Shown here: positions 28,416-39,315 of the stretch, one piece after another
How the letters are laid out: every line of letters starts with the position of its first letter
Numbering within the stretch: the first letter of the stretch is position 1
DNA from: Gemmatimonadales bacterium
GTDB taxonomy: Bacteria > Gemmatimonadota > Gemmatimonadetes > Gemmatimonadales > GWC2-71-9
Assembly: GCA_036555485.1 (NCBI GenBank)
Contig: DATBLG010000005.1
Span: forward strand, 902 to 64,901
DNA: 64,000 nt
Direction: 5' to 3'
Program-made: the position numbers and the translations under genes
The notes under the pieces: model-generated
What the model saw: the letters and a program-made list of their open reading frames with translations, nothing else
Told to the model about the DNA's origin: nothing
The model's database searches: none

Positions 28416-30953
28416 TCAAAGACGGGCATGGAGACGCTCCAGCGCACTCATCAAGTCCGGCTTCTCGTCCATGATCCCGATCAACGGGTCCTGCTTCAGT
28501 TTTTTCATGCGCTCGGGGACGTTGCGAATCGTGAACGCGCGAATGTCGAGCTTGGGCGTCACTTCCCGCCAGGTGATGGGTGTCGACACGGGGGCCCCCG
28601 GCAAGGGACGCACGCTGAACGGTGCCACGAGCAGGCGTCCGTGGCCGTTCTGGACGTAGTCGAGGTAGACCTTGCCGCCCCGCTTCTGCACCTGCCGCGT
28701 GACGGTAGCGATCTCCGGCAGCTCGGCCGCGACGACGCGCGCCAGGAGGCCGCCCAGCGTACGGGATTGCTCGTAGGTGATTTGGCGTCCCAACGGGATC
28801 AGCAAGTGCAGGCCCGTAGAGCCGCTCGTCTTGATACCGGCGGGCAACCCGATGTCGTCGCACAACGCCTTCGCCGTGTTGGCCACGGTCACCACGTCGG
28901 TGAACGGCGCCCCCTTCGGGTCGAGGTCGAGAATGCACCAGTCCGGCGTTTCGAGGGTCGCGACGCGGGAGGACCACACGTGCAACAGGATCGCCGCCAT
29001 GTTCGCGATGTAGAGCAGCGAGGATTGGTTGTCGCAGACGAAGTAGTCCAGCTCGCGCTGGGAGTCCTCGCTCCAGATCGTGACGGTCCTGACGAAGGCC
29101 TGCGCGTATTCGGGGGCGTCCTTCTGGAAGAACGATTTGCCGTTGATCCCGTCGGGATAGCGCGTGAGCACCAGCGGGCGGTCGGTGAGGTAGGGCAGCA
29201 TCCAGGCCGACACGGCGCGGTAGTATTCGATCAGATCGCCCTTAGTGTAGCGCTCCTCAGGCCAGAAGATCTTGTCGAGGTTTGAGAACTTGATGTCGGT
29301 CGCAGCGGGGAGTGGCTCGCTCCAGCGCGACGGTAAATCGGGCTCGGGGGCGTCGCGGCCCCCTTCCCCCTTCCCTTTGCCCTCGATTACGCACTCTTCC
29401 GGCTTTTTGTCGTCTCGAAACCGGAGAAACACCGGTTGACGCAGCAACCCGTCTCCGGTGATTTCCTTGTACCGCACCTCCGCAACGAGCTCCGGAGCCA
29501 CCCAGCGGCTGTCGGCTTCGGCCGGCACCGGGCCGGCGAACGGCGGCTTCGCCACCGCGAGGCGCTCGAGCTCCGCTGAGATTTCCGTCAGCTGCTTTGC
29601 ATTGAACCCGCTCCCCGCCCGACCGATGTACACGAGCGATCCGTCCTGGTACGCCGCCAGGTGCAGGGCGCCGAACCCGCCGCGCGATCCCTTGGGCGCG
29701 GTGTAGCCCGCCACCACGAAGTCACCCGTCTTGTCGGCGCGGACCTTGAGCCAGAGCTCGGAGCGCCCGGTCTTGTAGGGGCTGTCCGCTTTCTTGGCGA
29801 CGATTCCCTCGAGGCCGAGTCCCACCGCCCGGTCATAGAGCATCTCGCCGTCTTTCTCGAAGTGCTCGGAGTACCGCAGCGGGCCCGCTTCCGGCAGGAC
29901 CTTCCTCAGGATTGCTTTGCGTTTCACGAGCGGCAGCGGCCGCAGGTCGAACCCTTCGAGCGCCACGAGATCGAACAGATACATGGTGCCGGGGTTCTCG
30001 ACCGCGGCGTGGCGGATGTCCGGCGCGCGGGAGACCCGCGCCCGGTTCTGCAGCCGCTGGAAGCTCGGGCGCCCCTGCTCGTCCAGGATCACGAGCTCAC
30101 CGTCCATCACGAGTCCGTCGTAGGGCAGCGCCTTCACCGCGCGGGCCAGCTCCGGGAACGCCGCGGTGTAGTCGTTCCCATTGCGCGTGATGAGCCGTGC
30201 GGCTCCGGCTTCGCGCGCCACGCGCATGCGGTACCCGTCGAGCTTCACCTCGAACACCCAACCGGCGCGCGAGAACGGCTGCTCGCGCGTCTCCGCGAGC
30301 ATCGGCGGCACGTCCTCGGCGCGGAGCGGGCGCCGCGGCGCGCCAAGTTTCTTGAGTTCGGACCGGAGCTTCGCTGCCTTGTCGGCCCCGTCGCGCAGCT
30401 CTTCGACCGTGAGCCCCGAGAGCACGGACCCCGGCGGGAACTCGGCGCCGTTGGTCGAGACGTAGCCGTCGCGCTCCTTGATCAGGAGCCACTCCTTCAC
30501 GCCCTTCTTGAGCTTCACGAGGGTCCAAACGCCGCGCACCTTGTAGCCCCGCAGCTCGAACAGGAGCTTGCCTTTCCGCATGCCCTCCACCGGGTCCTCG
30601 AGGGGCACCCACAAGCCGCGGTCCCAGACAATGACCGCCCCGGCGCCGTAGTTCCCCTCTGGAATGATCCCCTCGAAATCGCCGTATTCGATCGGGTGGT
30701 CCTCGACATGGACGGCCAGCCGCTTGTCGGCAGGGTTGCGTGACGGGCCCTTGGGCACCGCCCACGACTTCAGCACGCCGTCCATTTCCAGGCGCAGGTC
30801 GAAGTGGAGGCGGGTCGCGGCGTGCTGGTGTATGATGAAGCGACGCCCTGGCGCCGCCGCGACGCTGCCCGATGGCTCGGGAGTGCGATCGGCGGAGCGC
30901 TTGGCGCGGTAAGTACTTAGCGCATCGTTGGTTGGATTACGATTTGCGCTCAC
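28416..30953 (-). CDS. ligD: Multidomain NHEJ DNA ligase D (phosphoesterase, ATP-dependent ligase, polymerase/primase)
   Basis: 845 aa. It has the PE domain (FIIHQHAATRLHFDLRLE), the ligase KxDG motif (EVKLDGYR) and the Pol domain (LDLDP, IKTSGSTGLHLLIPL). Confidence 0.9.
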   Translation of the reverse strand: MSANRNPTNDALSTYRAKRSADRTPEPSGSVAAAPGRRFIIHQHAATRLHFDLRLEMDGVLKSWAVPKGPSRNPADKRLAVHVEDHPIEYGDFEGIIPEGNYGAGAVIVWDRGLWVPLEDPVEGMRKGKLLFELRGYKVRGVWTLVKLKKGVKEWLLIKERDGYVSTNGAEFPPGSVLSGLTVEELRDGADKAAKLRSELKKLGAPRRPLRAEDVPPMLAETREQPFSRAGWVFEVKLDGYRMRVAREAGAARLITRNGNDYTAAFPELARAVKALPYDGLVMDGELVILDEQGRPSFQRLQNRARVSRAPDIRHAAVENPGTMYLFDLVALEGFDLRPLPLVKRKAILRKVLPEAGPLRYSEHFEKDGEMLYDRAVGLGLEGIVAKKADSPYKTGRSELWLKVRADKTGDFVVAGYTAPKGSRGGFGALHLAAYQDGSLVYIGRAGSGFNAKQLTEISAELERLAVAKPPFAGPVPAEADSRWVAPELVAEVRYKEITGDGLLRQPVFLRFRDDKKPEECVIEGKGKGEGGRDAPEPDLPSRWSEPLPAATDIKFSNLDKIFWPEERYTKGDLIEYYRAVSAWMLPYLTDRPLVLTRYPDGINGKSFFQKDAPEYAQAFVRTVTIWSEDSQRELDYFVCDNQSSLLYIANMAAILLHVWSSRVATLETPDWCILDLDPKGAPFTDVVTVANTAKALCDDIGLPAGIKTSGSTGLHLLIPLGRQITYEQSRTLGGLLARVVAAELPEIATVTRQVQKRGGKVYLDYVQNGHGRLLVAPFSVRPLPGAPVSTPITWREVTPKLDIRAFTIRNVPERMKKLKQDPLIGIMDEKPDLMSALERLHARL

Positions 30954-30981
30954 ATGTCACCATTCGTATAGTAGGTCCCCC

Positions 30982-31866
30982 ATGGCCGCTCATGCAATTG
31001 GCTCCGCCACGATCTCCTTCGGGCTCGTCTCCGTCCCGATCAAGATGTACTCGGCCGGCGAATCGTCGGCCGCGATCTCGTTCAACTGGCTCCACAAGAA
31101 GGACGGCGCCCGGTTGAAACAGCAGTACATCTGCTCCAAGGACGGCGAGAAAGTCGAAAACGACGACCGGATCAAGGGCTACGAGTTTTCCAAGGGCTCG
31201 TACGTGCTGTTTACCGTGGACGAGCTGAAAAAGCTGCAGATGGACGACAAGTCCAGTAACTCGATGAACATCACCGAGTTCGTGGACGCGGACACGGTGG
31301 ACCGGATGTACATGGACCGGGCGTATTTCCTCGGGCCGGACAAAGGCGGCGAGCGCGCGTTTGGGCTGCTGGGCGAGGCGCTGAAGAAGACCGGCAAAGT
31401 GGCGATCGGCCAGTGGGCGGCGCGCGGCAAACAGTATCTCATCATGATTCGGCCGCTCAGTCATGGCCTCGTGATGGAGCAGCTGCGATACGCGGATGAG
31501 GTCCGCTCCATTGACGACGTGCCGATCGACAAGATGGATTTGAAGAAGACCGAGATCGATCTGGCGGTGCAGCTCATTCAACAGCAGGCGGGGGGACAGT
31601 TCGAGCCGGAGAAGTACGAAGACGAAGTCAAGAAGCGGATCCTGGAGCAGATCGAGCGCAAGGTGCAGGGCAAGGAGATCACCGAAGAACCGACCGAGGC
31701 GCCCAAGACGCAGATCATCGACCTGATGGAGGCGCTCAAGGCGAGCCTCGCCAAGGGCAAAGGATCGGCCGGCGCTGAGCGCAAGCCCGCCAAACGGGCC
31801 GATCGCGACGCCGAGCCGAAGGCCGCGAAGGTCAAGCCGATGAAGCGGAAGGCCGCCAGCGCCTAA
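30982..31866 (+). CDS. ku: Ku protein (NHEJ DNA end-binding)
   Basis: The ATG at 30982 gives MAAHAIGSATISFGLVSVPIKMYSA, with a basic Lys-rich tail. It is divergent from ligD. Confidence 0.9.
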   Translation: MAAHAIGSATISFGLVSVPIKMYSAGESSAAISFNWLHKKDGARLKQQYICSKDGEKVENDDRIKGYEFSKGSYVLFTVDELKKLQMDDKSSNSMNITEFVDADTVDRMYMDRAYFLGPDKGGERAFGLLGEALKKTGKVAIGQWAARGKQYLIMIRPLSHGLVMEQLRYADEVRSIDDVPIDKMDLKKTEIDLAVQLIQQQAGGQFEPEKYEDEVKKRILEQIERKVQGKEITEEPTEAPKTQIIDLMEALKASLAKGKGSAGAERKPAKRADRDAEPKAAKVKPMKRKAASA

Positions 31867-31870
31867 CGCG

Positions 31871-32704
31871 ATGACGGGCTACACCACCGAGGAGGTGTCG
31901 CGGCTCCTCGGCCTCTCGCCCGCGCAGATCCGTTCCTACACACGAGCCGGATTCCTATCCCCCGCGCGCAGCCGCCGCGGGGACTTGCGTTTTACGTTCC
32001 AGGACCTCGTGCTGTTGCGGGCGGCGAAGGGATTGATGGCCGCGCGCATTCCCGCGGCGAAGATCCGTGGCTCACTGCGACGGTTGAAGCAGCAGCTGCC
32101 GCGGGGACGCGCTCTCTCCGAGCTGCGGATCACGGCGGAGGGCCACCGCATCGTGGCGCGAGACGGCGCCGTCACGTGGCATCCCGACTCAGGACAGCTG
32201 GTGCTGGATTTCAACGTAGCGTCGCTGGCTCAGCGGGCGGCCCCGCTCGCCCGGCGCCAGGCCGCCGCGGCCCGGCAGGTCGAGGACGAGCTCGACGCGG
32301 AACAATGGTTCGAGCTCGGGTTGGAGCTGGAGGTGAGCGCGCCCGATGAAGCGCGCGATGCCTATCGCCGGGCGCTCGAGCTCGACCCACACCACGCGGA
32401 CGCGCACGTCAATCTCGGCCGGCTGCTGCTCGAGACGGGCCGCGCAGGCGACGCGGAGGCGCACTATCGCGCGGTGCTCGGCGACGACCCTGGACACCCC
32501 ACGGCCTGGTTCAACCTGGGCATCGCCCTGGAAGACCAGCGCCGGCCCCAGGACGCGATCAAAGCGTACGAGCAGGCGATCGTCGCCGACCGGCGACTGG
32601 CGGATGCCTATTTCAACCTGGCGCGACTGTACGAGCAGGCGGGTAAGCGGGCCGCCGCGCTGCGCAATCTCTCCAAGTATCGATTGCTGACCGAAGGGCG
32701 CTAA
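31871..32704 (+). CDS. MerR-type HTH protein fused to TPR repeats
   Basis: 277 aa. The N-terminus YTTEEVSRLLGLSPAQIRSYTRAGFL...FTFQDLVLL is MerR-like, and the C-terminus has at least 3 TPR units. It starts 4 nt after the ku stop. Confidence 0.75.
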   Translation: MTGYTTEEVSRLLGLSPAQIRSYTRAGFLSPARSRRGDLRFTFQDLVLLRAAKGLMAARIPAAKIRGSLRRLKQQLPRGRALSELRITAEGHRIVARDGAVTWHPDSGQLVLDFNVASLAQRAAPLARRQAAAARQVEDELDAEQWFELGLELEVSAPDEARDAYRRALELDPHHADAHVNLGRLLLETGRAGDAEAHYRAVLGDDPGHPTAWFNLGIALEDQRRPQDAIKAYEQAIVADRRLADAYFNLARLYEQAGKRAAALRNLSKYRLLTEGR

Positions 32705-32761
32705 CTCAATCTGAGGCTCAGTCCCAGAAGATGTGACATGGTGCGCGAATCGGCGTCCGCC

Positions 32762-33472
32762 CTAGAACAGCGCGCGGAACTCTTCTGCGAGCTTCGGGCC
32801 CTCTCCCGACTCCTCGTGTTTGAAGAACACGAAGGCGTCCTTCCACTCCTTGCCGAGCGTGTTCACCGACTCCGCCCACTGTTCGAGCTGCGGCTTCGCA
32901 TAGCCCTCATCACGCAGCCGGAAGTACCCGAAATCCGCCGTGGCGACGAGCGGCGTGTGCCCGGCGTCGGTATCAGCCACGCACAGCGCCGCATTGCCAG
33001 TGCGCAACGCGTCGTAGACGTCGTCGGCGAACCAGGAGTCGTGGCGAAATTCCCATGCACAGCGCAGATCGGCGGGAAACAACGTGAGCACATCCTTCAG
33101 CCGGGCCAGGTCCTTCTTGAAATTGGGCGGTAGCTGAAACAGGATGGGCCCGAGCTTGTCGCCCAGCGGTCGAACGGTCTCGGTGAAATAGCGCAGCGGG
33201 TCGTCCACGTCTCGCAGCCGGCCGATGTGGGTGATGCGCTGCGACGCCTTGAGGACGAACGTGAACCCCGCGGGGACGGCCTGGCTCCAGCCGGACACCG
33301 TCTTGGCGTTGGGCATGCGATAGAACGTGTAGTTGATTTCCACCGCGGAGAAGTGTTCGGCGTAGTACGGCAGCATCTTGGCGGCAGGGAGTTTCACAGG
33401 ATAAAACGTGCCCTTCCACTCCGGGAAGTTGTAGCCCGACGTGCCGACGTGAAGCCGCATCGGGAGGAGCAT
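32762..33472 (-). CDS. DUF72 (UPF0759) family protein
   Basis: Matches the DUF72 pattern (LHVGTSGYNFPEWKGTFYP, EINYTFYRMP). The start is 33472 or 33460. The longer track ORF to 33634 has an implausible N-terminus. Confidence 0.8.
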   Translation of the reverse strand: MLLPMRLHVGTSGYNFPEWKGTFYPVKLPAAKMLPYYAEHFSAVEINYTFYRMPNAKTVSGWSQAVPAGFTFVLKASQRITHIGRLRDVDDPLRYFTETVRPLGDKLGPILFQLPPNFKKDLARLKDVLTLFPADLRCAWEFRHDSWFADDVYDALRTGNAALCVADTDAGHTPLVATADFGYFRLRDEGYAKPQLEQWAESVNTLGKEWKDAFVFFKHEESGEGPKLAEEFRALF

Positions 33473-33575
33473 CGCGCGACCGACCGGCGACCGCAACCCC
33501 TCACCGGTTCGCCGTGGAGCCGCTATGTTCGGGTCGCGTCGGTCCGGTTCCACCTCTCGTACTCGGAGTCCGTCC

Positions 33576-33953
33576 ATGTTGAAGCCGTTGGGCATCATTC
33601 TCGTAATCGTTACGGCGCTCGCCGCTCCCGTCACGCTTCCGGCTCAGAACCTCCCCGCCGGCACGTGGACCGGCACCATGAGCCCGCCGACAGACGCCGC
33701 GGTGCCGGTGACGTTCGAAGTCTCCGGCAGTGGCGATTCGCTGGCCATATCAATGGTGCTCCCCACCGGCCAACGCGCGCCGTTCAACGAACTCCGGTTG
33801 GCCGACGGCAAGCTGCTGTTCCAATGGGCCGCCGGTCCCACGATCGTCAAATGCGATCTGGCCAAGCAGGAGAGCGGCGGGTTCAAGGGCCCGTGCACCG
33901 ACTCGGAAGGAATGACGGGCCAAATCGAGATGGTGCCCCCAACCAAGCCGTAG
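33576..33953 (+). CDS. Small exported hypothetical protein
   Basis: The ATG at 33576 gives a signal peptide (MLKPLGIILVIVTALAAPVTLPAQ). The product is 125 aa with two Cys. It ends 28 nt upstream of the peroxiredoxin gene. Confidence 0.6.
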   Translation: MLKPLGIILVIVTALAAPVTLPAQNLPAGTWTGTMSPPTDAAVPVTFEVSGSGDSLAISMVLPTGQRAPFNELRLADGKLLFQWAAGPTIVKCDLAKQESGGFKGPCTDSEGMTGQIEMVPPTKP

Positions 33954-33981: not shown

Positions 33982-34584
33982 ATGAGGCTCGCATCGATGC
34001 GCCCTTCTGAACTGATTCCCCTCGGCCTCCTCCTGCTCGCCGCCCCGGTCGCGGCGCAGCAACCGACGGCCACACCCGCCCCTGCCCCGGAGCCGCTGCA
34101 GGTCGGGACCGTCGCGCCGGATTTCACCCTCACGGGCGCCACCCGGTACGGCGTCATTCGGGACCCGATCCACCTGAGCGATTTCAAGGGGAAAACCGTC
34201 GTGCTCGCCTTCTTCTTCAAGGCGCGAACACGAGGGTGAACGGTTCAAATGAACGCGTACCGTGATCAGTACGCGCAGCTCTTCAAGAACGGCCGCAACA
34301 TCGTGCTCGTCGCCATCAGTGCCGACCCCGACACCGCGCTGTACTCCTGGGCGCGGGATGCCGAGTTCCCGTTCCTGTTTGCCAGCGACACCGGGTCGGT
34401 AGTGGGCCGGATGTACGGGGCATTCTCGAGTCGCGCCTCACTGAACAACCGCAACCTGTTCGTGGTGGGACCCGACGGGAAGATCGCGTATCGCGCGACG
34501 CCGTTTCGGGAGATTGATCCCACAGCGTACGAAGAACTGGGGCAAGCGATCCAACGGCTCGCCCCCATAGAGCCGGGGAATTGA
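33982..34584 (+). CDS. Exported Bcp/PrxQ-type peroxiredoxin with an in-frame TGA at the peroxidatic Cys position (candidate selenoprotein; alternatively a pseudogene)
   Basis: Track ORFs 33982..34239 and 34249..34584 are in the same frame and separated only by the TGA at 34237-34239 plus 3 sense codons. The joined sequence reads ...GKTVVLAFFFKARTRG[TGA]TVQMNAYRD.... This aligns with the E. coli Bcp active site (as I recall it) FYPKAMTPGCTVQACGLRD. The downstream part also keeps Prx features (ISAD, NRNLFVVGPDGKI). Confidence 0.6.
34254..34275 (+). promoter_or_regulatory. Candidate bacterial SECIS hairpin
   Basis: cgcgtac (34254-34260) pairs with gtacgcg (34269-34275) around the loop cgtgatca, which contains GU. 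The stem starts 15 nt after the UGA. It can be extended by tgaa (34250-34253) pairing with ttca (34282-34285). Confidence 0.35.
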
Positions 34585-34617: not shown

Positions 34618-35133
34618 TTATCGCGCCACCCGCCGCACCGCCGCCTCGATATCCTGATCCGCACCGAGGCCGGTATAGGCGACTTTCCCGGCGCTATCCA
34701 GCACCACCACGTAGCTCGTCGATGGAGCCTGGAAGGCGCGTACCGCCCGACCATTGCCATCCCACAGGATCCGAAACGGCATTGGGTGCCGCGCCAGGTG
34801 ACGCTTGATGCCTGCCTGACTCTGGTTCACCGCCACGGCGACCACGACGAACTCCACCTGGTCCCCAAAGCGCGCGTGCGCGGCTGCCATGCGAGGGAAC
34901 AACGCCGCGCACAGCGGGCACCACGTGGCCCAGAACTCGATCAGCACCGGCTTCTTCCCGATGATCTGACCGAGGGCCACCGGGCGACCGTCCAGGTCCT
35001 CGATCGTCACCGCCTCAGGTCTTGTGCCGATGGCGATGCCGATCGCATCGTCCTGCGCGACCACATGACCCGGTGTACCGAGCGCGACCGCCAGTACGAA
35101 GCACACCACGCACGCCACACCCCGCACCATCAT
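34618..35133 (-). CDS. TlpA/ResA-like periplasmic thiol:disulfide oxidoreductase
   Basis: The ATG at 35133 forms an ATGA overlap with the ccdA stop. It has a signal/anchor (MMVRGVACVVCFVLAVAL) and the thioredoxin motif FWATWCPLC. The product is 171 aa. Confidence 0.85.
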   Translation of the reverse strand: MMVRGVACVVCFVLAVALGTPGHVVAQDDAIGIAIGTRPEAVTIEDLDGRPVALGQIIGKKPVLIEFWATWCPLCAALFPRMAAAHARFGDQVEFVVVAVAVNQSQAGIKRHLARHPMPFRILWDGNGRAVRAFQAPSTSYVVVLDSAGKVAYTGLGADQDIEAAVRRVAR

Positions 35134-35852
35134 CACAACACCCTTCCCATTTGCACGAAGTAGTACTCGGCCATGAAGAGAAGTACCACGCCGGCCAGCC
35201 GTCTGATCCACGTCATCCACGGGCCAGGCCGGGGCAGCGCGGCCAGGGCTCCCGAAAACAACCCCACCGCGGCCAGCACGACGCTCATGCCGAGTGAGAA
35301 CATGAAGAGGTAGGTGAAGCCGAGCACCGCGCTGTGCGTGGTGGCGACCCAGGTGAGCACCGCCCCGAACGCCGGCGCCCCGCAGGGCGCCGCGACGATC
35401 CCCGACGTGGCGCCCAGCAGGAACACCGCCGGATACGATCCGCCCGACAGACCGGCGGCCCACCCGGCGAGCCGCTGGGGCGCGGCGACGGGGAACACGT
35501 CAAGCATCGCCAGCGCGAATACGAGCAGCAGGTTCCCGATCGCGAACCGCGTCCAGGGGTTCGAGGCCACCGTCCCGAACAGCGTCCCCGTCAGCCCCGC
35601 GAGGAGGCCCATCAAGGCGTAGAACGAGGCGAGCCCCAGGATGTACACGACCGTGCGCACGACCACGCGGCGGCGCGGAGCGTCTGGGCGCGCGCCACCC
35701 CCCAGCACTCCCGCCGTGATGGGGATCATCGGGTAAATGCAGGGATTGAGACTCGTGGCCACCCCCGCAAGGAACAGCAACGCGGCCGCGACGGGTGGGC
35801 TGTGCCGTAAGGCGTCGGTCAGGCCGGCGGCGAGCGCTGGCAAAAGCGGCAT
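35133..35852 (-). CDS. ccdA: CcdA/DsbD-family transmembrane thiol-disulfide electron transporter
   Basis: 239 aa with 6 or more TM helices. The motifs LNPCIYPMIP and APCGAP carry the two conserved Cys of the family. Confidence 0.85.
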   Translation of the reverse strand: MPLLPALAAGLTDALRHSPPVAAALLFLAGVATSLNPCIYPMIPITAGVLGGGARPDAPRRRVVVRTVVYILGLASFYALMGLLAGLTGTLFGTVASNPWTRFAIGNLLLVFALAMLDVFPVAAPQRLAGWAAGLSGGSYPAVFLLGATSGIVAAPCGAPAFGAVLTWVATTHSAVLGFTYLFMFSLGMSVVLAAVGLFSGALAALPRPGPWMTWIRRLAGVVLLFMAEYYFVQMGRVL

Positions 35853-35871
35853 GGTCGTGACAATCTACACC

Positions 35872-36468
35872 ATGGCCGACGGCAAACAGATCCACGACGA
35901 CCGACGAAGCCGCTGCGGATGGCTGGGCGACAATCCCCTGATGCTCGCGTATCACGACAAGGAGTGGGGGGTCCCCATTCGCAACGATGCGCGGCTCTTC
36001 GGCAAGCTGGTGCTGGATGGATTCCAGGCCGGCCTGTCGTGGGCCATCATCCTGCGCAAGCGCGCCGATTTTCTGCGTGCGTTCGACGGCTTCGATCCCG
36101 AGCGCATGGCCCGCTACGATAGCCGCAAGCGCCGCGCGCTCCTCGCGGATCCCGGCATCGTGCGCAACCGGCAGAAGATCGATTCGGCCATTGGCAACGC
36201 CCGAGCGTTTCTCGAGCTGCGAGACGCCGGAGTGCGATTCGGTCCGTTCTTGTGGGGATTCGTGGACGGGCGCACCAAGCACAACGCATGGAAATCGCTA
36301 CGGCGGCTCCCGGCCAAGTCGCGAGAATCTGAGCGCATGAGCAAGGCGTTGGTCGAGCGCGGATTCCACTTCGTAGGCCCGACAATCTGCTACGCGTTCA
36401 TGCAGGCGGTGGGGATGGTGAACGACCATATCGTGACCTGTTACCGCCACGACGAGCTGAAGCGGTAG
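35872..36468 (+). CDS. tag: DNA-3-methyladenine glycosylase I
   Basis: Matches Tag (CGWLGDNPLMLAYHDKEWGVP, LVLDGFQAGLSW). I prefer the ATG at 35872. An ATG at 35851 would overlap the ccdA start. Confidence 0.85.
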   Translation: MADGKQIHDDRRSRCGWLGDNPLMLAYHDKEWGVPIRNDARLFGKLVLDGFQAGLSWAIILRKRADFLRAFDGFDPERMARYDSRKRRALLADPGIVRNRQKIDSAIGNARAFLELRDAGVRFGPFLWGFVDGRTKHNAWKSLRRLPAKSRESERMSKALVERGFHFVGPTICYAFMQAVGMVNDHIVTCYRHDELKR

Positions 36469-39315
36469 CTAGGGCAGCTCGACGCCAATCTCCTCGAGAA
36501 ACATGGTCCCCCCACTATCTTTGCCGAACCGTTGCACCGCGCGTGTCAGCACCAGCCGATCGCGCGCCCGCGTCATCCCCACGTAGAGGAGCCGGCGTCC
36601 CTCTTCGATCTCTTCGCGCCGCGCTTCCTTCGTCGCCCAGTAGCCCGGCAACTCGTAGTCCTCCACCCCCACGATGTACACGCGCGAGAATTCCAGTCCC
36701 TTGGTGGAATGGAGGGTGAGCAGGTTCACACGGTCCGGATCGGCTTCCACTCCCTCGGACGATGACAAGGCCACCCGCTCGAGCAGCCGTTGGATCCCCG
36801 CGTCCAGGCCGTCCCCGGCATCGGGCTCGCTGGCGGCCACGAGTGCTTCGAGCCGCGCCACCGCCGACGGGTAGCGTTCGGCCGCGGTGCGATCGGCGCG
36901 CAGACGCTCCAGCAGGGCGTGGCCGCCGAGGCGCTCGATAACCTCTGCTTCGTCCGGCGCGTCGACGGCTGGTGTGCGCGACCGTTCCGCGCCGTAGAAC
37001 TCGAGGCAGTCACTGTAACGACCCAGCGCATAGGTGCGCGCCAGCTGGCGCAGCAAGCGCCGCTCGTCGGTCGGTGCCCGATCATCAGCCAGGGCAAGAC
37101 CGAGCCCGACATGGTCGAGCAGATTCACGAGGGCCGCCTTGCGCGCCCGGACGAGCTTGTGAGCTACGAGATGACGCAACACCCGAGCGAGCGTCAGCGC
37201 GTCGTCCAGGGCGTGGTGCGCGCGACCCTTGTCCACACCGAATCGTTCCGCCAGGTGCTCGAGCTTCGCGCTCTCGGAAAACAGCGCGCGCGCCAGCGGC
37301 AAGGTGTCGAAGCAGGTGAGCCCGTCGCCGCCATCGAGCCCGGCGGCGAGCCGCCGCAGTACCGGCACGTCGAACCCTTGCCCGTTGTGAGCGACGAGCA
37401 CCCGGTCACCCACGAACGCCCGGAACCGCGGCCACACCTCCGAGAACGACGGCTGGCCGACGAGGTCCGCATCCGCATACCCGTGCACCGCGGTCGCGGC
37501 GGCGGCCACGGATTGCTGCCGCGGCCGCACCAGCGAGTGGAACCGGTCCACCACCTCGCCGTCCTGTACCCGCACCGCGCCGATCTCGATCACCTCACAA
37601 GTCGCGATGTCGTTGCCAGTCGTCTCGAGGTCGAAGGTGACGCACTCCCGGAACATCTCGCCGAAGCCGCGCCCGTTGGCCAACTGCAGCGCCTTGAACA
37701 ATCGCACCACGATTTCCCCCGGCTCCTGCGGGTCGGCGCCGAGCAACAAATCCTCGGGCGCCGGACCGTCGTCCGGTCCGAGGTAGGTCACGACGCGAAC
37801 GAGCCCCGAGCGCACCAGCATCCCGCGCAGGGCGATTTCCAGACCGTGGTGCGGGACGATCCACACCCGCGCGCCCGTCACGAGCCGGTCCGCCAGATGC
37901 GCCGCTCCGGGATAGACAGCTGGGTCGGTCAATTCGTCGGCATGCTCCTCGAGCGGGTTCTTGTACGCCCCCATCCGCTGGGTGAGCAACTCCGCCACGA
38001 GACCGCGCAGCGACTCATGGCTCTGGCGCAGGGCACGCAGGTTTTCGACGTGAAACACGAAGCGCCACGCCTTCTTCGTATCGGGGTCGCTCGCATGGCT
38101 GTCGCGCGCGATTCGGCGCACGACCGCCAGCAAATCGTGGCCGGCGGCCGCGCCGACCGCGCGGATGCGCTCGAGCAGCTCAGCGGGGAGCAGCCGTTCC
38201 GCCAGCGCCTCGAGGGCCAGCGCGTCGTCCGGGTCGCGGATCACGCGCAGCGAGGCGATCACCTGGCCGATGACGTCGTCGTCCACGAGTGCGCGGCCGC
38301 GTGCCAGCCGACACGGTATGCCGGCTCGCAGGAGGTGGTTCTCCAGCTCCTCACCCAGGCGGTGATGCCGGTACAGCATCGCGACCTCGCCCCACCCGAG
38401 CCCGTGCTCCGCGCGGTCGCGCACCACGTCCTCGATCAGCCACGCCGCTTCCGCCGCTTCATCCGGGAAGCGGCGCACCAGGACGGGAAACGGGGAGTCG
38501 CGCACCGCCTCGATGCGCTTCTCGAACAGTTTCGGGTTGCACTCCACCAAGCGGCGCGCCGCCGCAAAGATCTGGCGCGACGAGCGTCGATTCTGGTCCA
38601 GCACGATCGGGTCGTCGATCCCGAACTCCTCGCGAAAGCGGCGCAATACGTCCGGGTCGGCCCCCGTCCACGAGAAGATCGACTGCTCGTCGTCGCCAAC
38701 CGCGAAGAAGCTGCCGTGCGGCTCCGCGAGGCGTACCAGCGTGTCGTACTGCGCGGGGTTCAGGTCCTGGAACTCGTCCACCAGCAGGTGGTCCCAGCGC
38801 GCGGCCACCGCGGCCGCGACGTCCGAATGTTCGGCAAAGAGGTCGCGCGTGAGTGCGACGAGGTCGTCGAAATCGACGACGTTGCGCGCACGGAGCGTCG
38901 CGAGGTAGCGGTCCAGCAAGTCCTGGTCCCCGCCACTCAGGTGAAACCCCTGGAGCCGGCGCCTGCCGAACTGCGTCAGCAGCGTGCTCATGCGCTTGCG
39001 GGCCACCCCGAGGCGGCGCAGCACGAGCCGCTGATACTCTTCGTCGGCCACGCCGAACCCGCGACGCAGCCCGAGCCGCTCACCGTGTACGCGCAGGATC
39101 TCGAGACAGAGGGCGTGCAGCGTACCGCGGGTGAGCAGCTCGCCCGCCGGGCCCACCTCGCGGCGCAACCGCGCGACGATTTCCTCGGCGGCCTTGTTGG
39201 TGAAGGTGACGGCGCAGATACGCGCCGGATCGGCGCGGTGACGATCGATCAGCTGGCGCACTCGCTCGATCAGGCAGAACGTCTTCCCTGCCCCTGGACC
39301 GGCGAGGACCAGCAC
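36469..39315 (-). CDS. UvrD/PcrA-like superfamily-1 helicase with an internal DnaQ-like DEDDh 3-prime to 5-prime exonuclease domain
   Basis: Helicase motifs: I (AGPGAGKT), II (VDEFQD), III (GDDEQSIF), V and VI (TLHSTKGLEF, YVGMTRARD). Exonuclease motifs lie between them at about 37168-37644 (FDLETTG, HNGQGFDV, HHALDDA). The coding signal continues upstream of the GTG at 39315 (see findings). Confidence 0.85.
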   Translation of the reverse strand: MLVLAGPGAGKTFCLIERVRQLIDRHRADPARICAVTFTNKAAEEIVARLRREVGPAGELLTRGTLHALCLEILRVHGERLGLRRGFGVADEEYQRLVLRRLGVARKRMSTLLTQFGRRRLQGFHLSGGDQDLLDRYLATLRARNVVDFDDLVALTRDLFAEHSDVAAAVAARWDHLLVDEFQDLNPAQYDTLVRLAEPHGSFFAVGDDEQSIFSWTGADPDVLRRFREEFGIDDPIVLDQNRRSSRQIFAAARRLVECNPKLFEKRIEAVRDSPFPVLVRRFPDEAAEAAWLIEDVVRDRAEHGLGWGEVAMLYRHHRLGEELENHLLRAGIPCRLARGRALVDDDVIGQVIASLRVIRDPDDALALEALAERLLPAELLERIRAVGAAAGHDLLAVVRRIARDSHASDPDTKKAWRFVFHVENLRALRQSHESLRGLVAELLTQRMGAYKNPLEEHADELTDPAVYPGAAHLADRLVTGARVWIVPHHGLEIALRGMLVRSGLVRVVTYLGPDDGPAPEDLLLGADPQEPGEIVVRLFKALQLANGRGFGEMFRECVTFDLETTGNDIATCEVIEIGAVRVQDGEVVDRFHSLVRPRQQSVAAAATAVHGYADADLVGQPSFSEVWPRFRAFVGDRVLVAHNGQGFDVPVLRRLAAGLDGGDGLTCFDTLPLARALFSESAKLEHLAERFGVDKGRAHHALDDALTLARVLRHLVAHKLVRARKAALVNLLDHVGLGLALADDRAPTDERRLLRQLARTYALGRYSDCLEFYGAERSRTPAVDAPDEAEVIERLGGHALLERLRADRTAAERYPSAVARLEALVAASEPDAGDGLDAGIQRLLERVALSSSEGVEADPDRVNLLTLHSTKGLEFSRVYIVGVEDYELPGYWATKEARREEIEEGRRLLYVGMTRARDRLVLTRAVQRFGKDSGGTMFLEEIGVELP

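What the first reader, a model, noticed from the sequence alone, without database searches (positions are those of the whole stretch)
33982..34584. In-frame UGA at the peroxidatic cysteine position of an exported Bcp/PrxQ peroxiredoxin: candidate selenoprotein
The two track ORFs (33982-34239 and 34249-34584) share one frame and together form a complete peroxiredoxin. The interrupting TGA (34237-34239) falls exactly where Bcp-type enzymes have the catalytic Cys. This gene reads KARTRG-[TGA]-TVQMNAYRD; E. coli Bcp, as I recall it, reads KAMTPG-C-TVQACGLRD. The sequence after the TGA keeps family features (ISADP, NRNLFVVGPDGKI), so the reading frame has not decayed. A 7-bp hairpin with a GU-containing loop begins 15 nt downstream (34254-34275), within the usual distance range for bacterial SECIS elements. 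Sec-containing Prx-like proteins are known in some anaerobes. This one differs in having an N-terminal signal peptide (LIPLGLLLLAAPVAAQQ), and an exported bacterial selenoprotein would be unusual. There is no resolving Cys (UTVQMN rather than CTVQAC), so it would be a 1-Sec enzyme that needs an external reductant.
Basis: partly seen in the sequence, partly recalled or inferred. Interest (0 to 1): 0.75.

Follow-up and report, generated by a model that had tools for sequence, protein, structure and literature searches.

The report
Exported selenocysteine peroxiredoxin of Gemmatimonadota
The stop codon inside this peroxiredoxin gene is almost certainly read as selenocysteine, because it and a hairpin just after it are kept in about 130 related soil-bacterium genes that public annotation splits or truncates.

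Summary
ORF 33982/33997-34584(+) is one AhpC/TSA peroxiredoxin gene. An in-frame TGA (34237-34239) sits exactly at the peroxidatic-Cys position, and a 7-bp hairpin lies at 34254-34275.

The selenoprotein reading is strongly supported by comparison:
- 129 homologous sites carry TGA at this codon. They come from 80 metagenome contigs and 45 Gemmatimonadota MAGs, and protein identity falls to about 50%.
- Both halves of the gene are under purifying selection (dN/dS 0.19 and 0.23).
- The 20 nt GCGTACCGTGATCAGTACGC after the TGA are essentially invariant, including non-preferred codons. The closing base pair covaries (C-G, U-A, G-C).
- Natural Cys (TGC) relatives use free codons at these positions and lose most or all of the hairpin.
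- The hairpin meets every criterion of the published bacterial SECIS model.
- TGA is also the commonest ordinary stop in the window, so the recoding is local.

The protein has an N-terminal signal peptide or anchor and no other Cys. In 73 of 91 loci it is followed by convergent TlpA-like and CcdA genes, a likely periplasmic reductant chain.

I could not test for selA/selB/selC/selD; the genome is not available here. Sec-peroxiredoxins are known. This one is a new, misannotated, phylum-wide subfamily in which Phe/Tyr usually replaces the canonical active-site Pro.

The parts
33997..34584 (+). Complete coding sequence of the selenocysteine peroxiredoxin (195 codons plus the stop codon; an alternative upstream ATG lies at 33982).
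   Evidence: Single frame through one TGA. Pfam AhpC-TSA E 3.7e-25. Start chosen from the GAGG 9 nt upstream and from the L003 ortholog, which is called at the equivalent ATG. dN/dS is 0.19 before the TGA and 0.23 after it.
33997..34056 (+). Signal peptide or N-terminal membrane anchor, MRPSELIPLGLLLLAAPVAA, with a likely cleavage site before QQ. There is no twin-arginine motif.
   Evidence: Sequence. 101 of 104 distinct family N-termini have a hydrophobic 12-mer with mean Kyte-Doolittle above 1.8, followed by QQP and a Pro/Ala-rich linker. No SignalP-type predictor was available, so cleavage is inferred.
34057..34095 (+). Pro/Ala-rich linker QQPTATPAPAPEP between the export signal and the catalytic domain.
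   Evidence: The linker is present across the family with variable length. The AlphaFold model of relative P0025 has low pLDDT (50-56) over the first 30 residues.
34096..34581 (+). Peroxiredoxin (thioredoxin-fold) catalytic domain.
   Evidence: Pfam match over residues 41-170. PDB sequence hits to Bcp and AhpE. The model of the natural Cys relative P0025 (pLDDT 87) matches AhpE with target-normalised TM 0.86-0.88 and also matches Bcp.
34216..34218 (+). Phe codon at the position of the canonical Pro of the PxxxTxxC motif.
   Evidence: The soil clade reads FF[F/Y/I]KARTxG-TGA. Two freshwater MAGs keep Pro together with the TGA (L131, L133). 98 Cys homologs have Pro.
34228..34230 (+). Active-site Thr of the TxxU motif.
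   Evidence: Nearly invariant (Ser in two of the MAG loci) across the family. Aligned to the Thr of Bcp.
34237..34239 (+). In-frame TGA, proposed selenocysteine codon at the peroxidatic position.
   Evidence: TGA at 129 homologous sites. TGC in relatives L086/L087, L135 and L142. Aligned to Cp of E. coli Bcp, archaeal Bcp and AhpE.
34254..34275 (+). SECIS-type hairpin: 7-bp stem (34254-34260 with 34269-34275) and 8-nt apical loop CGUGAUCA (34261-34268). 21 nt separate the TGA from the loop.
   Evidence: RNAalifold on -30..+62 of 54 sequences predicts only this helix. 98.9% of cells are paired. The closing pair reads UA:32, CG:30, GC:1. Six codons have zero synonymous entropy in 75 genes. The core 20-mer is unique in the window, with 0 expected by chance. 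Energy is -9.4 kcal/mol. The hairpin is reduced or lost in the TGC forms.
34250..34285 (+). Possible 4-bp lower helix (34250-34253 with 34282-34285) enclosing the hairpin. Support is weak.
   Evidence: It is part of the single-sequence minimum-free-energy fold. 97% of cells are paired but there is no covariation. RNAalifold does not predict it.
34450..34452 (+). Conserved active-site Arg (NNRNLFVV).
   Evidence: Invariant in the family. Aligned with the Arg of HRISFLID in E. coli Bcp.
34582..34584 (+). Ordinary TGA stop codon of the same gene.
   Evidence: TGA ends 20 of 38 high-GC3 ORFs in the window, so TGA is not reassigned genome-wide.
34618..35136 (-). TlpA/ResA-like exported thioredoxin (WCPLC active site, N-terminal anchor). 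Proposed direct reductant.
   Evidence: Pfam Redoxin, AhpC-TSA and Thioredoxin. NCBIfam ResA subfamily 7.7e-17, below its cutoff. Sequence. Convergent downstream neighbour in 73 of 91 loci with enough flank.
35133..35852 (-). CcdA/DsbD-type transmembrane electron transporter with two conserved Cys (NPCIYP, AAPCGAP).
   Evidence: Pfam DsbD_TM 7.9e-40. Sequence. Co-conserved with the TlpA-like gene in 73 of 91 loci.

Best explanation
The gene encodes a cell-envelope (periplasmic or membrane-tethered) 1-Sec peroxiredoxin of a Gemmatimonadales bacterium. During translation, the UGA at 34237-34239 is decoded as selenocysteine. The mRNA hairpin at 34254-34275, with apical loop CGUGAUCA 21 nt after the UGA, acts as a bacterial SECIS. 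It recruits SelB-GTP-Sec-tRNA(Sec) to the approaching ribosome, so the codon escapes RF2. The same gene then terminates at an ordinary UGA that has no hairpin. The N-terminal signal or anchor sends the unfolded chain through the Sec translocon. In the envelope, the selenolate at the Cp position (supported by the conserved Thr and Arg) reduces peroxides and becomes a selenenic acid. No resolving Cys exists, so the enzyme is recycled by an external dithiol. The most likely reductant is the neighbouring exported TlpA-like thioredoxin, which would be kept reduced by the CcdA membrane transporter using cytoplasmic thioredoxin electrons. Shown here: conservation of the UGA, coding constraint on both sides of it, RNA-level constraint and covariation in the hairpin, loss of that constraint in Cys forms, the Prx fold and active-site alignment, and the conserved gene neighbourhood. 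Inferred: the identity of the inserted residue, the involvement of SelB, export, peroxidase activity, and the electron path.
For: (1) TGA sits at the Cp codon at 129 sites. Sources are 80 soil-type metagenome contigs, 45 GTDB species-representative MAGs (all labelled Gemmatimonadota except one 'Acidobacteria' bin) and L003; the count includes the window itself. Identity to the window protein falls to 48-53%.
(2) Both halves are under purifying selection: dN/dS 0.19 before and 0.23 after the TGA, with synonymous divergence pS 0.53 and 0.57.
(3) Codons +5 to +10 (GCG TAC CGT GAT CAG TAC) have zero synonymous entropy in 75 distinct genes, although CGT and GAT are not the codons preferred elsewhere in the same genes. 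pS there is only 0.17.
(4) The closing base pair switches C-G, U-A and G-C, separately within the Asn (AAC/AAT), His (CAC/CAT) and Glu (GAG) subclades.
(5) Natural controls. Relatives with TGC encode the same AYRDQY peptide with CGG/CGC and GAC, and the hairpin weakens to -4.9 or -2.3 kcal/mol (L135, L142). In L086 the hairpin is lost altogether, while the TlpA/CcdA synteny is kept.
(6) All four criteria of the published bSECIS model (PMC13188914, Fig. 2 legend) are met: 8-nt loop, 7-bp stem, G followed by U at loop positions 2-3 (the only variant seen at position 3 is G, also allowed), 21-nt spacing, and -9.4 kcal/mol.
(7) TGA is the commonest ordinary stop in the window and ends this gene, so decoding must be site-specific.
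(8) Prx identity: Pfam, PDB and E. coli Bcp alignments with the TGA on Cp, and a structural match of the modelled Cys relative to AhpE and Bcp.
(9) Export signal in 101 of 104 N-termini and no Cys in 103 of 104 mature sequences.
(10) TlpA-like and CcdA genes lie convergent downstream in 73 of 91 loci. There is an experimental precedent for a DsbD-family transporter -> TlpA -> periplasmic peroxiredoxin chain in Caulobacter (PMC3322552).
Against: No selA, selB, selD or tRNA-Sec was found in the window or in 1.33 Mb of related loci. The rest of these genomes could not be read, so the decoding machinery is unverified. No paper in the held library links Gemmatimonadota with selenocysteine. The hairpin's folding energy in a single sequence is not better than that of shuffles (z -0.20). 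Six of the seven stem pairs never vary, so covariation rests on one pair. The universal Prx Pro is replaced by Phe/Tyr/Ile in most members, which could mean altered or lost peroxidase chemistry. The TlpA/CcdA genes are convergent with the Prx gene rather than co-transcribed, and a subclade lacks them (18 of 91 loci). Export is inferred from hydrophobicity and sequence pattern only. In the '...ALMQQP' subgroup the signal may be an uncleaved anchor.
Confidence: 0.85

Rival explanations
1. The protein is a genuine selenoprotein but not a peroxide-scavenging enzyme. Having lost the canonical Pro, the exported Sec protein would work as a thiol/selenol oxidoreductase, a sulfenic-acid reductase or a redox sensor in the TlpA/CcdA pathway.
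For: Phe/Tyr/Ile replaces the Pro of PxxxTxxC in nearly all soil-clade members. The protein fails the equivalog cutoffs for BCP and PrxU. In Caulobacter the peroxiredoxin-like PrxL, which belongs to the same kind of pathway, had no detectable peroxidase activity (PMC3322552 outline).
Against: Thr, Sec/Cys and Arg of the Prx active site are all conserved and align with Bcp. Deeper-branching members keep Pro together with the TGA (L131, L133), so the family began as PxxxTxxU. The fold is closest to 1-Cys AhpE and to Bcp.
Confidence: 0.12
2. The UGA is recoded, but not as selenocysteine. The hairpin would stimulate read-through by a near-cognate or suppressor tRNA (Trp, Cys, Gly or Arg) without SelA/SelB/SelC.
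For: The Sec machinery was not observed. There is no literature record of Sec use in this phylum in the held library.
Against: The recoded codon is exactly the catalytic Cys position, and relatives have Cys there. Trp, Gly or Arg would kill a Prx, and Cys could simply be encoded by TGC, as in L086. The hairpin matches the SelB-type bSECIS model in loop content and spacing. The machinery was not shown to be absent; it was only unsearchable.
Confidence: 0.04
3. The gene is a pseudogene, or the TGA is a sequencing or assembly error in a normal Cys peroxiredoxin.
For: Public annotation treats the locus as fragments (a 111-aa ORF, HEY7684572.1). One contig at 1.6x coverage has TTA at the site (L002).
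Against: Independent assemblies from many samples show TGA at 129 sites with no other disabling mutation. dN/dS is about 0.2 on both sides of the TGA. An error cannot be reproduced across genes that differ at half of their synonymous sites.
Confidence: 0.01
4. The gene is split on purpose. Translation stops at the TGA and re-initiates at ATG 34249, giving an exported 80-aa N-fragment and a separate 111-aa C-fragment. The hairpin would serve re-initiation or mRNA stability.
For: An invariant ATG lies 4 codons after the TGA. Gene callers start the 111-aa ORF there.
Against: The Met belongs to the family motif T[IV]QM and is equally conserved in uninterrupted Cys homologs. The C-fragment would lack an export signal and would sit in a different compartment from the N-fragment. 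The split would cut the Prx fold at its active site and remove the catalytic residue. TGC relatives encode one chain.
Confidence: 0.02

Closest known systems
Selenocysteine-containing peroxiredoxin PrxU (Eubacterium acidaminophilum type; NCBIfam NF040737; 'Peroxiredoxin (Prx) PF00578 TxxU' in the selenoprotein table of PMC13188914)
   Same: It is an AhpC/TSA-fold protein with Sec encoded by UGA at the peroxidatic position in a TxxU motif, and a SECIS hairpin lies directly downstream.
   Different: The score is only 59.4 bits against the PrxU cutoff of 270. This protein has an N-terminal export signal and linker. Most members have Phe/Tyr instead of the Pro of the 'highly conserved PxxxTxxU' motif quoted in PMC13188914. 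The host is a phylum whose cultured members are aerobes (my own knowledge), not a strict anaerobe. The neighbours are TlpA and CcdA.
E. coli Bcp / PrxQ-class peroxiredoxins
   Same: This is the best-characterised sequence relative (30% identity, E 7e-19), with Cp, Thr and Arg aligned. Archaeal Bcp structures are the top PDB sequence hits.
   Different: Below the NCBIfam BCP cutoff (55.8 against 140 bits). Sec replaces Cys. There is no resolving Cys 5 residues downstream (Asn instead). The protein is exported rather than cytoplasmic.
Mycobacterium tuberculosis AhpE (1-Cys peroxiredoxin; PDB 1xvw, 1xxu, 4x0x)
   Same: It gives the highest structural similarity to the model of the Cys relative (target-normalised TM 0.84-0.88, 31-33% identity). 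It also has a single catalytic chalcogen with no resolving Cys, so it needs an external reductant.
   Different: AhpE is cytoplasmic, uses Cys and keeps the canonical Pro.
Caulobacter crescentus ScsB -> TlpA -> PprX envelope peroxide-reduction pathway (PMC3322552)
   Same: Both have a periplasmic peroxiredoxin, a TlpA-type exported thioredoxin and a DsbD-family membrane electron transporter. Here the three genes are adjacent in 73 of 91 loci.
   Different: PprX uses Cys. The transporter here is the minimal CcdA type (DsbD_TM only, 239 aa) rather than ScsB. The functional link here is inferred from synteny only.
E. coli fdhF/fdnG SECIS elements and the consensus bSECIS model (Zhang and Gladyshev; summarised in PMC13188914)
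   Same: The hairpin lies inside the coding sequence just after the UGA. It has a small apical loop with G followed by U in its first positions, and 16-37 nt separate the UGA from the loop. All listed criteria are met.
   Different: The sequence is unrelated to the E. coli elements. No bulged U is evident. The 20-nt core is unusually invariant across a whole phylum, partly because it overlaps the conserved peptide AYRDQYA.

Membership tests
Peroxiredoxin (AhpC/TSA, Pfam PF00578) | Significant match to the family profile above the gathering score | tested here: met
   88.7 bits against a cutoff of 26, E 3.7e-25, covering profile positions 1-123 of 124.
Peroxiredoxin (AhpC/TSA, Pfam PF00578) | Peroxidatic Cys/Sec preceded by Thr/Ser three residues upstream (TxxC/U) | tested here: met
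   T-R-G-[TGA] aligns to T-P-G-C of E. coli Bcp and to the Cp of 2ywn and 1xvw.
Peroxiredoxin (AhpC/TSA, Pfam PF00578) | Pro of the PxxxTxxC motif | tested here: not met
   Phe in the window. F/Y/I in nearly all soil-clade members. Pro is kept only in L131 and L133 and in 98 Cys homologs.
Peroxiredoxin (AhpC/TSA, Pfam PF00578) | Conserved active-site Arg and thioredoxin-type fold | tested here: met
   The Arg of NNRNLFVV is invariant and aligns to the Arg of HRISFLID in Bcp. The model of Cys relative P0025 (pLDDT 87) matches AhpE and Bcp with probability 1.00. The window protein itself was not modelled.
Peroxiredoxin (AhpC/TSA, Pfam PF00578) | Thiol/selenol-dependent peroxidase activity | not testable with these tools
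   Requires an enzyme assay.
BCP/PrxQ subfamily (NCBIfam NF006960) | Score above the curated equivalog cutoff | tested here: not met
   55.8 bits against 140.
BCP/PrxQ subfamily (NCBIfam NF006960) | Resolving Cys five residues after Cp (CxxxxC; typical of the subfamily but not universal) | tested here: not met
   Asn at that position. There is no Cys anywhere in the mature protein.
PrxU selenoprotein equivalog (NCBIfam NF040737) | Score above the curated cutoff | tested here: not met
   59.4 bits against 270.
Bacterial selenoprotein gene | In-frame UGA conserved among orthologs, with the coding sequence under constraint on both sides | tested here: met
   129 TGA sites. dN/dS 0.19 and 0.23.
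Bacterial selenoprotein gene | Cys-containing homologs aligned at the UGA | tested here: met
   98 of the top 120 database homologs have Cys there. TGC was verified in the DNA of L086, L135 and L142.
Bacterial selenoprotein gene | bSECIS: 3-9 nt apical loop, 4-16 bp upper stem, G in the first two loop positions, 16-37 nt from the UGA to the loop, MFE <= -7.5 kcal/mol (criteria quoted from PMC13188914) | tested here: met
   8-nt loop CGUGAUCA, 7-bp stem, 21-nt spacing, -9.4 kcal/mol. Supported by covariation, by synonymous-site invariance and by loss in the Cys forms.
Bacterial selenoprotein gene | selA, selB, selC (tRNA-Sec) and selD present in the same genome | not testable with these tools
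   None in the 64-kb window or in 1.33 Mb of related loci.
Bacterial selenoprotein gene | Selenium actually incorporated | not testable with these tools
   Needs 75Se labelling or mass spectrometry.
Sec-translocon exported / envelope protein | N-terminal positively charged n-region, hydrophobic h-region and an AxA-type cleavage site; no twin-arginine motif | tested here: inconclusive
   MRPSE-LIPLGLLLLAAPVAA|QQ in the window. 101 of 104 family N-termini have a strongly hydrophobic 12-mer. No dedicated signal-peptide predictor was available, and one subgroup (…ALMQQP) may be anchored rather than cleaved.

The most novel reading that the evidence does not exclude
Site-specific, hairpin-directed UGA recoding at a catalytic Cys position in a phylum that turns out to lack the canonical SelA/SelB/tRNA-Sec/SelD system. 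That would mean a new decoding route, either for selenocysteine or for another residue, maintained across Gemmatimonadota by an invariant 20-nt element. The evidence here does not exclude this, because the machinery genes could not be searched. The conventional reading is far more likely. Even under that reading, the gene would be a phylum-wide cell-envelope 1-Sec peroxidase of mostly aerobic soil bacteria with a non-canonical F/YxxxTxxU active site.
Probability: 0.04. Interest if true: 0.9.

Novelty: new member of a known kind. Interest (0 to 1): 0.5.

Why it matters
Selenocysteine peroxiredoxins and the bacterial SECIS mechanism are already known, so no new principle is involved. Three things make this case useful.

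1. Distribution. The gene is conserved across Gemmatimonadota, an abundant soil phylum whose cultured members are aerobes (my own knowledge). A recent review states that aerobic bacteria rarely retain selenoproteins (PMC13188914). A selenoenzyme kept under strong selection in these organisms, and placed in the oxidising cell envelope, bears on why Sec is kept in preference to Cys. It also suggests that this phylum depends on soil selenium.

2. Natural controls. The family contains Sec forms with Pro, Sec forms with Phe or Tyr at that site, and one Cys revertant. These variants could be used to test what the canonical Prx Pro contributes when the nucleophile is a selenolate.

3. Annotation. Public records split or truncate the gene: a 111-aa 'redoxin domain-containing protein', an 80 + 111 aa ORF pair, or a code-4 style read-through with Trp. 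The family is therefore invisible in proteome and metaproteome searches. The invariant 20-mer GCGTACCGTGATCAGTACGC placed 15 nt after the TGA is a simple marker for correcting the annotation.

Tried and rejected
- Sec machinery. tRNA scans (ARAGORN) and Rfam on the window found nothing. tblastn with E. coli SelA, SelB and SelD (read from NC_000913.3) against the window and all loci (1.33 Mb), plus ARAGORN on all loci, gave no sel gene and no tRNA-Sec. The one SelB-like hit (L129) is a CysN/CysC sulfate adenylyltransferase next to CysD.
- Reaching the rest of the carrier genomes. I found no way to do this. Collection scans are capped and return only +/-10 kb. A protein search with an E. coli Sel query would list only enterobacterial relatives, so I did not spend one on it.
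- A second selenoprotein gene. I scanned 1.33 Mb for in-frame TGAs flanked by high-GC3 coding sequence on both sides. Only adjacent same-frame genes turned up.
- Literature. Searches for Gemmatimonadetes, Gemmatimonadota or Gemmatimonas together with selenocysteine found nothing relevant. The BSepDB paper holds no text supplement.
- Single-sequence folding energy as evidence for the hairpin. Rejected as uninformative (z -0.20).
- A 4-bp lower helix. No covariation, and RNAalifold does not predict it.
- Trp and Leu at the Sec position in the database proteins P0001-P0003, which could have meant a decayed active site. P0001's Trp is a TGA translated with a Mycoplasma-type code. P0002's Leu is a TTA on a contig with 1.6x coverage. 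P0003 has no DNA on record.
- Genome-wide TGA reassignment. Rejected, because TGA ends 20 of 38 confident ORFs and this gene itself.
Full report
**1. What is in the sequence**

On the + strand, one reading frame runs from ATG 33982 (or, more likely, ATG 33997) to a TGA stop at 34582-34584. It is interrupted only by TGA 34237-34239. With Cys substituted at the TGA, the product matches Pfam AhpC-TSA end to end (E 3.7e-25, 88.7 bits against a cutoff of 26) and Redoxin.

I read E. coli bcp from NC_000913.3 instead of relying on memory. BLASTP aligns AFFFKARTRG-[TGA]-TVQMNAYRD with VYFYPKAMTPG-C-TVQACGLRD at 30% identity and E 7e-19. The TGA lies on Cys45 (Cp) and Asn lies on the resolving Cys50. 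PDB sequence searches give archaeal Bcp (2ywn, 3.8e-12) and the 1-Cys peroxiredoxin AhpE (1xvw) as the closest solved relatives, again with the TGA on Cp.

On its own the folding energy is unremarkable (z -0.20 against shuffles). The window holds no tRNA gene and no Rfam match.

**2. The TGA is conserved, not accidental**

A protein search returned full-length Cys homologs at 78% identity or less. It also returned eighteen 111-aa proteins at 86-100% identity. These are the ORF that gene callers start at the ATG four codons after the TGA, which is the signature of the same interruption in relatives.

- The closest 'full-length' hits carry W or L at the site. P0001's W is a TGA in the DNA, called with a Mycoplasma-type code that also reads through the true TGA stop. 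P0002's L is a TTA on an 864-bp contig with 1.6x coverage.
- A scan of JGI metagenome contigs gave 80 loci, and all of them carry TGA at this codon.
- A scan of GTDB species-representative genomes gave 46 loci from 45 MAGs, and again all carry TGA. Nearly all are labelled Gemmatimonadales, Gemmatimonadota or Gemmatimonadetes. There is one Longimicrobiales, one Gemmatimonas sp. and one 'Acidobacteria gp6' bin. One locus comes from a closed 2.87-Mb chromosome (CP070716.1). Protein identity to the window falls to 48-53%.
- In total there are 129 TGA sites.
- Over 600 random pairs of 122 distinct genes, dN/dS is 0.19 for the 46 codons before the TGA and 0.23 for the part after it. Synonymous differences are near saturation (pS 0.53 and 0.57).

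A pseudogene or a sequencing error is therefore excluded. TGA also ends 20 of 38 confident ORFs in the window and ends this gene itself. The codon is not reassigned genome-wide, so it must be recoded locally.

**3. The hairpin behaves as a SECIS**

- In 75 distinct genes, the six codons GCG TAC CGT GAT CAG TAC have zero synonymous entropy. The same amino acids elsewhere in the gene show 0.6-1.7 bits and prefer CGC/CGG and GAC. pS in this stretch is 0.17, and nearly all of it comes from the two flanking positions.
- Those two positions form the closing base pair and change together: AAC...GCG (C-G), AAT...GCA (U-A) and GAG...GCC (G-C). The counts are UA:32, CG:30, GC:1 and one mismatch in 64 sequences. 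98.9% of all cells are paired, against 19-55% when the partner column is slid.
- The switches occur separately in the Asn, His (CAC/CAT) and Glu subclades, so there were at least three independent events.
- RNAalifold on -30..+62 of 54 sequences predicts this helix and nothing else.
- The only loop variants are CGGGAUCA and CGUGACCA.
- Natural controls settle what the constraint is for. TGC relatives that encode the same AYRDQY peptide use CGG/CGC and GAC, and the hairpin weakens to -4.9 or -2.3 kcal/mol (L135, L142). L086/L087 is a TGC form inside the Phe/Tyr clade with the same neighbours, and it has lost the hairpin altogether.
- Against the published bSECIS model (3-9 nt loop, 4-16 bp stem, G in the first two loop positions followed by G or U, 16-37 nt between UGA and loop, MFE <= -7.5; PMC13188914), the element has an 8-nt loop, a 7-bp stem, G-U at loop positions 2-3, 21-nt spacing and -9.4 kcal/mol.

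**4. What the protein is and where it works**

The family N-termini look like Sec-type signals or anchors: MRxxxL, then a hydrophobic stretch, then AAQQP or ALMQQP, then a Pro/Ala-rich linker. 101 of 104 distinct N-termini have a strongly hydrophobic 12-mer, and none has a twin-arginine motif. 103 of 104 mature sequences have no Cys.

An AlphaFold model of the natural Cys relative P0025 (pLDDT 87) is a peroxiredoxin fold. It is closest to AhpE (target-normalised TM up to 0.88) and to Bcp. The active-site Thr is conserved (Ser in two loci) and the Arg is invariant.

The canonical Pro of PxxxTxxC/U is Phe in the window and F/Y/I in nearly all soil-clade members. Two freshwater MAGs (L131, and L133 with two tandem copies) keep Pro together with the TGA. 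The family therefore probably began as PxxxTxxU and lost the Pro later.

The protein fails the NCBIfam equivalog cutoffs for BCP (55.8 against 140 bits) and for the known Sec-peroxiredoxin PrxU (59.4 against 270 bits). It is a distinct subfamily.

**5. Likely reductant**

Immediately downstream and convergent lie two genes:
- a 172-aa TlpA/ResA-like exported thioredoxin with a WCPLC active site (34618-35136, minus strand);
- a 239-aa CcdA/DsbD_TM transporter with its two Cys (35133-35852, minus strand).

This pair follows the Prx gene in 73 of 91 loci that have enough flank, including the Cys revertant. A DsbD-family transporter -> TlpA -> periplasmic peroxiredoxin chain has been shown experimentally in Caulobacter (PMC3322552). 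I infer the same electron path here. It would supply the external reductant that a 1-Sec enzyme needs.

**6. What could not be shown**

None of these genes lies in the window or in 1.33 Mb of related loci (the L129 hit is CysN/C). Only +/-10 kb around each hit can be fetched. A scan for other in-frame TGA genes in the same DNA found none. The held literature has nothing on Sec in this phylum. Selenium incorporation, export and peroxidase activity all remain inferences.

**7. Comparison with what is known, and verdict**

Sec-containing peroxiredoxins (PF00578, TxxU) are an established selenoprotein family (PMC13188914). Periplasmic selenoproteins exist, for example E. coli FdnG (established knowledge), and a multihaem cytochrome c selenoprotein has been reported (PMC13510729). 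The mechanism proposed here is canonical. The finding is therefore a new member of a known kind.

It does have notable features. It is conserved across the sampled members of a phylum of mostly aerobic soil bacteria. It has an envelope location and a 1-Sec active site that usually lacks the canonical Pro. Its SECIS core is invariant over 20 nt. It has a conserved CcdA/TlpA neighbourhood. Public annotation consistently gets it wrong: HEY7684572.1 is the 111-aa fragment, and L003 is called as 80 + 111 aa.

My confidence that this is a genuine Sec-decoded gene is about 0.85-0.9. My confidence in the peroxidase and TlpA/CcdA details is lower. Interest is moderate (0.5).

Noticed in passing
window 34249-34584; L003 9749-10336; L001 548-1120: Public gene calls mishandle the gene in three ways. 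NCBI HEY7684572.1 is only the 111-aa C-terminal fragment, named 'redoxin domain-containing protein'. L003 is annotated as separate 80-aa and 111-aa ORFs. A JGI call translates both TGAs as Trp and runs past the true stop.
   Followed up: yes
L086 5001-5576 and L087 3671-4246: A natural TGC (Cys) form sits inside the Phe/Tyr clade (FFYKARTRGC) with the same TlpA/CcdA neighbours. The downstream hairpin is completely dissolved and the peptide has changed (QMDTYRDRYPT). It looks like a Sec-to-Cys reversion.
   Followed up: partly
L133 9596 and 10199; L131 3820: Two freshwater MAGs keep the canonical Pro together with the TGA (FFPKARTSG-TGA-TAQM). L133 has two tandem TGA-containing copies. These loci lack the TlpA/CcdA neighbours.
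   Followed up: partly
L002 332-334: One 864-bp contig with 1.6x coverage has TTA (Leu) instead of TGA, with the hairpin intact. This is probably a read error. P0003 also shows Leu at the site, but no DNA is on record for it.
   Followed up: partly
window 34225-34248: Rare codons are also nearly fixed immediately around the TGA across the family: CGA at -4 (64 of 75), CGT at -2, GGC at -1 (71 of 75), ACG at +1 and CAA at +3 (70 of 75). No pairing partner was predicted for them. This may be a context effect on recoding versus termination.
   Followed up: no
window 33525-33953 (+): The upstream ORF encodes a small protein with a signal-peptide-like N-terminus and no Pfam or NCBIfam match. It is found next to the Prx gene only in close relatives (L003, L089), so it is probably not part of the system.
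   Followed up: partly
window 28416-33634 and 35737-39315: The surrounding genes are DNA-repair genes: LigD (28416-30953, minus), Ku (30928-31866, plus), a MerR-TPR regulator (31871-32704, plus), DUF72 (32762-33634, minus), a 3-methyladenine glycosylase (35737-36468, plus) and a UvrD-helicase/RNase_T-exonuclease fusion (36469-39315, minus). The same order is seen in L003.
   Followed up: partly
window 35133-35852 (-): The best NCBIfam hit of the CcdA-like protein is the DsbD-like part of the selenoprotein TsoB (NF045694; 163 bits against a cutoff of 805). This reflects only the shared DsbD transmembrane domain. The window gene has no in-frame TGA.
   Followed up: no
L103 (QHWJ01000199.1): One carrier contig is binned as 'Acidobacteria bacterium gp6', but its gene and TlpA/CcdA neighbours look like those of the Gemmatimonadales loci. 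This is either a mis-binned contig or a horizontal transfer.
   Followed up: no
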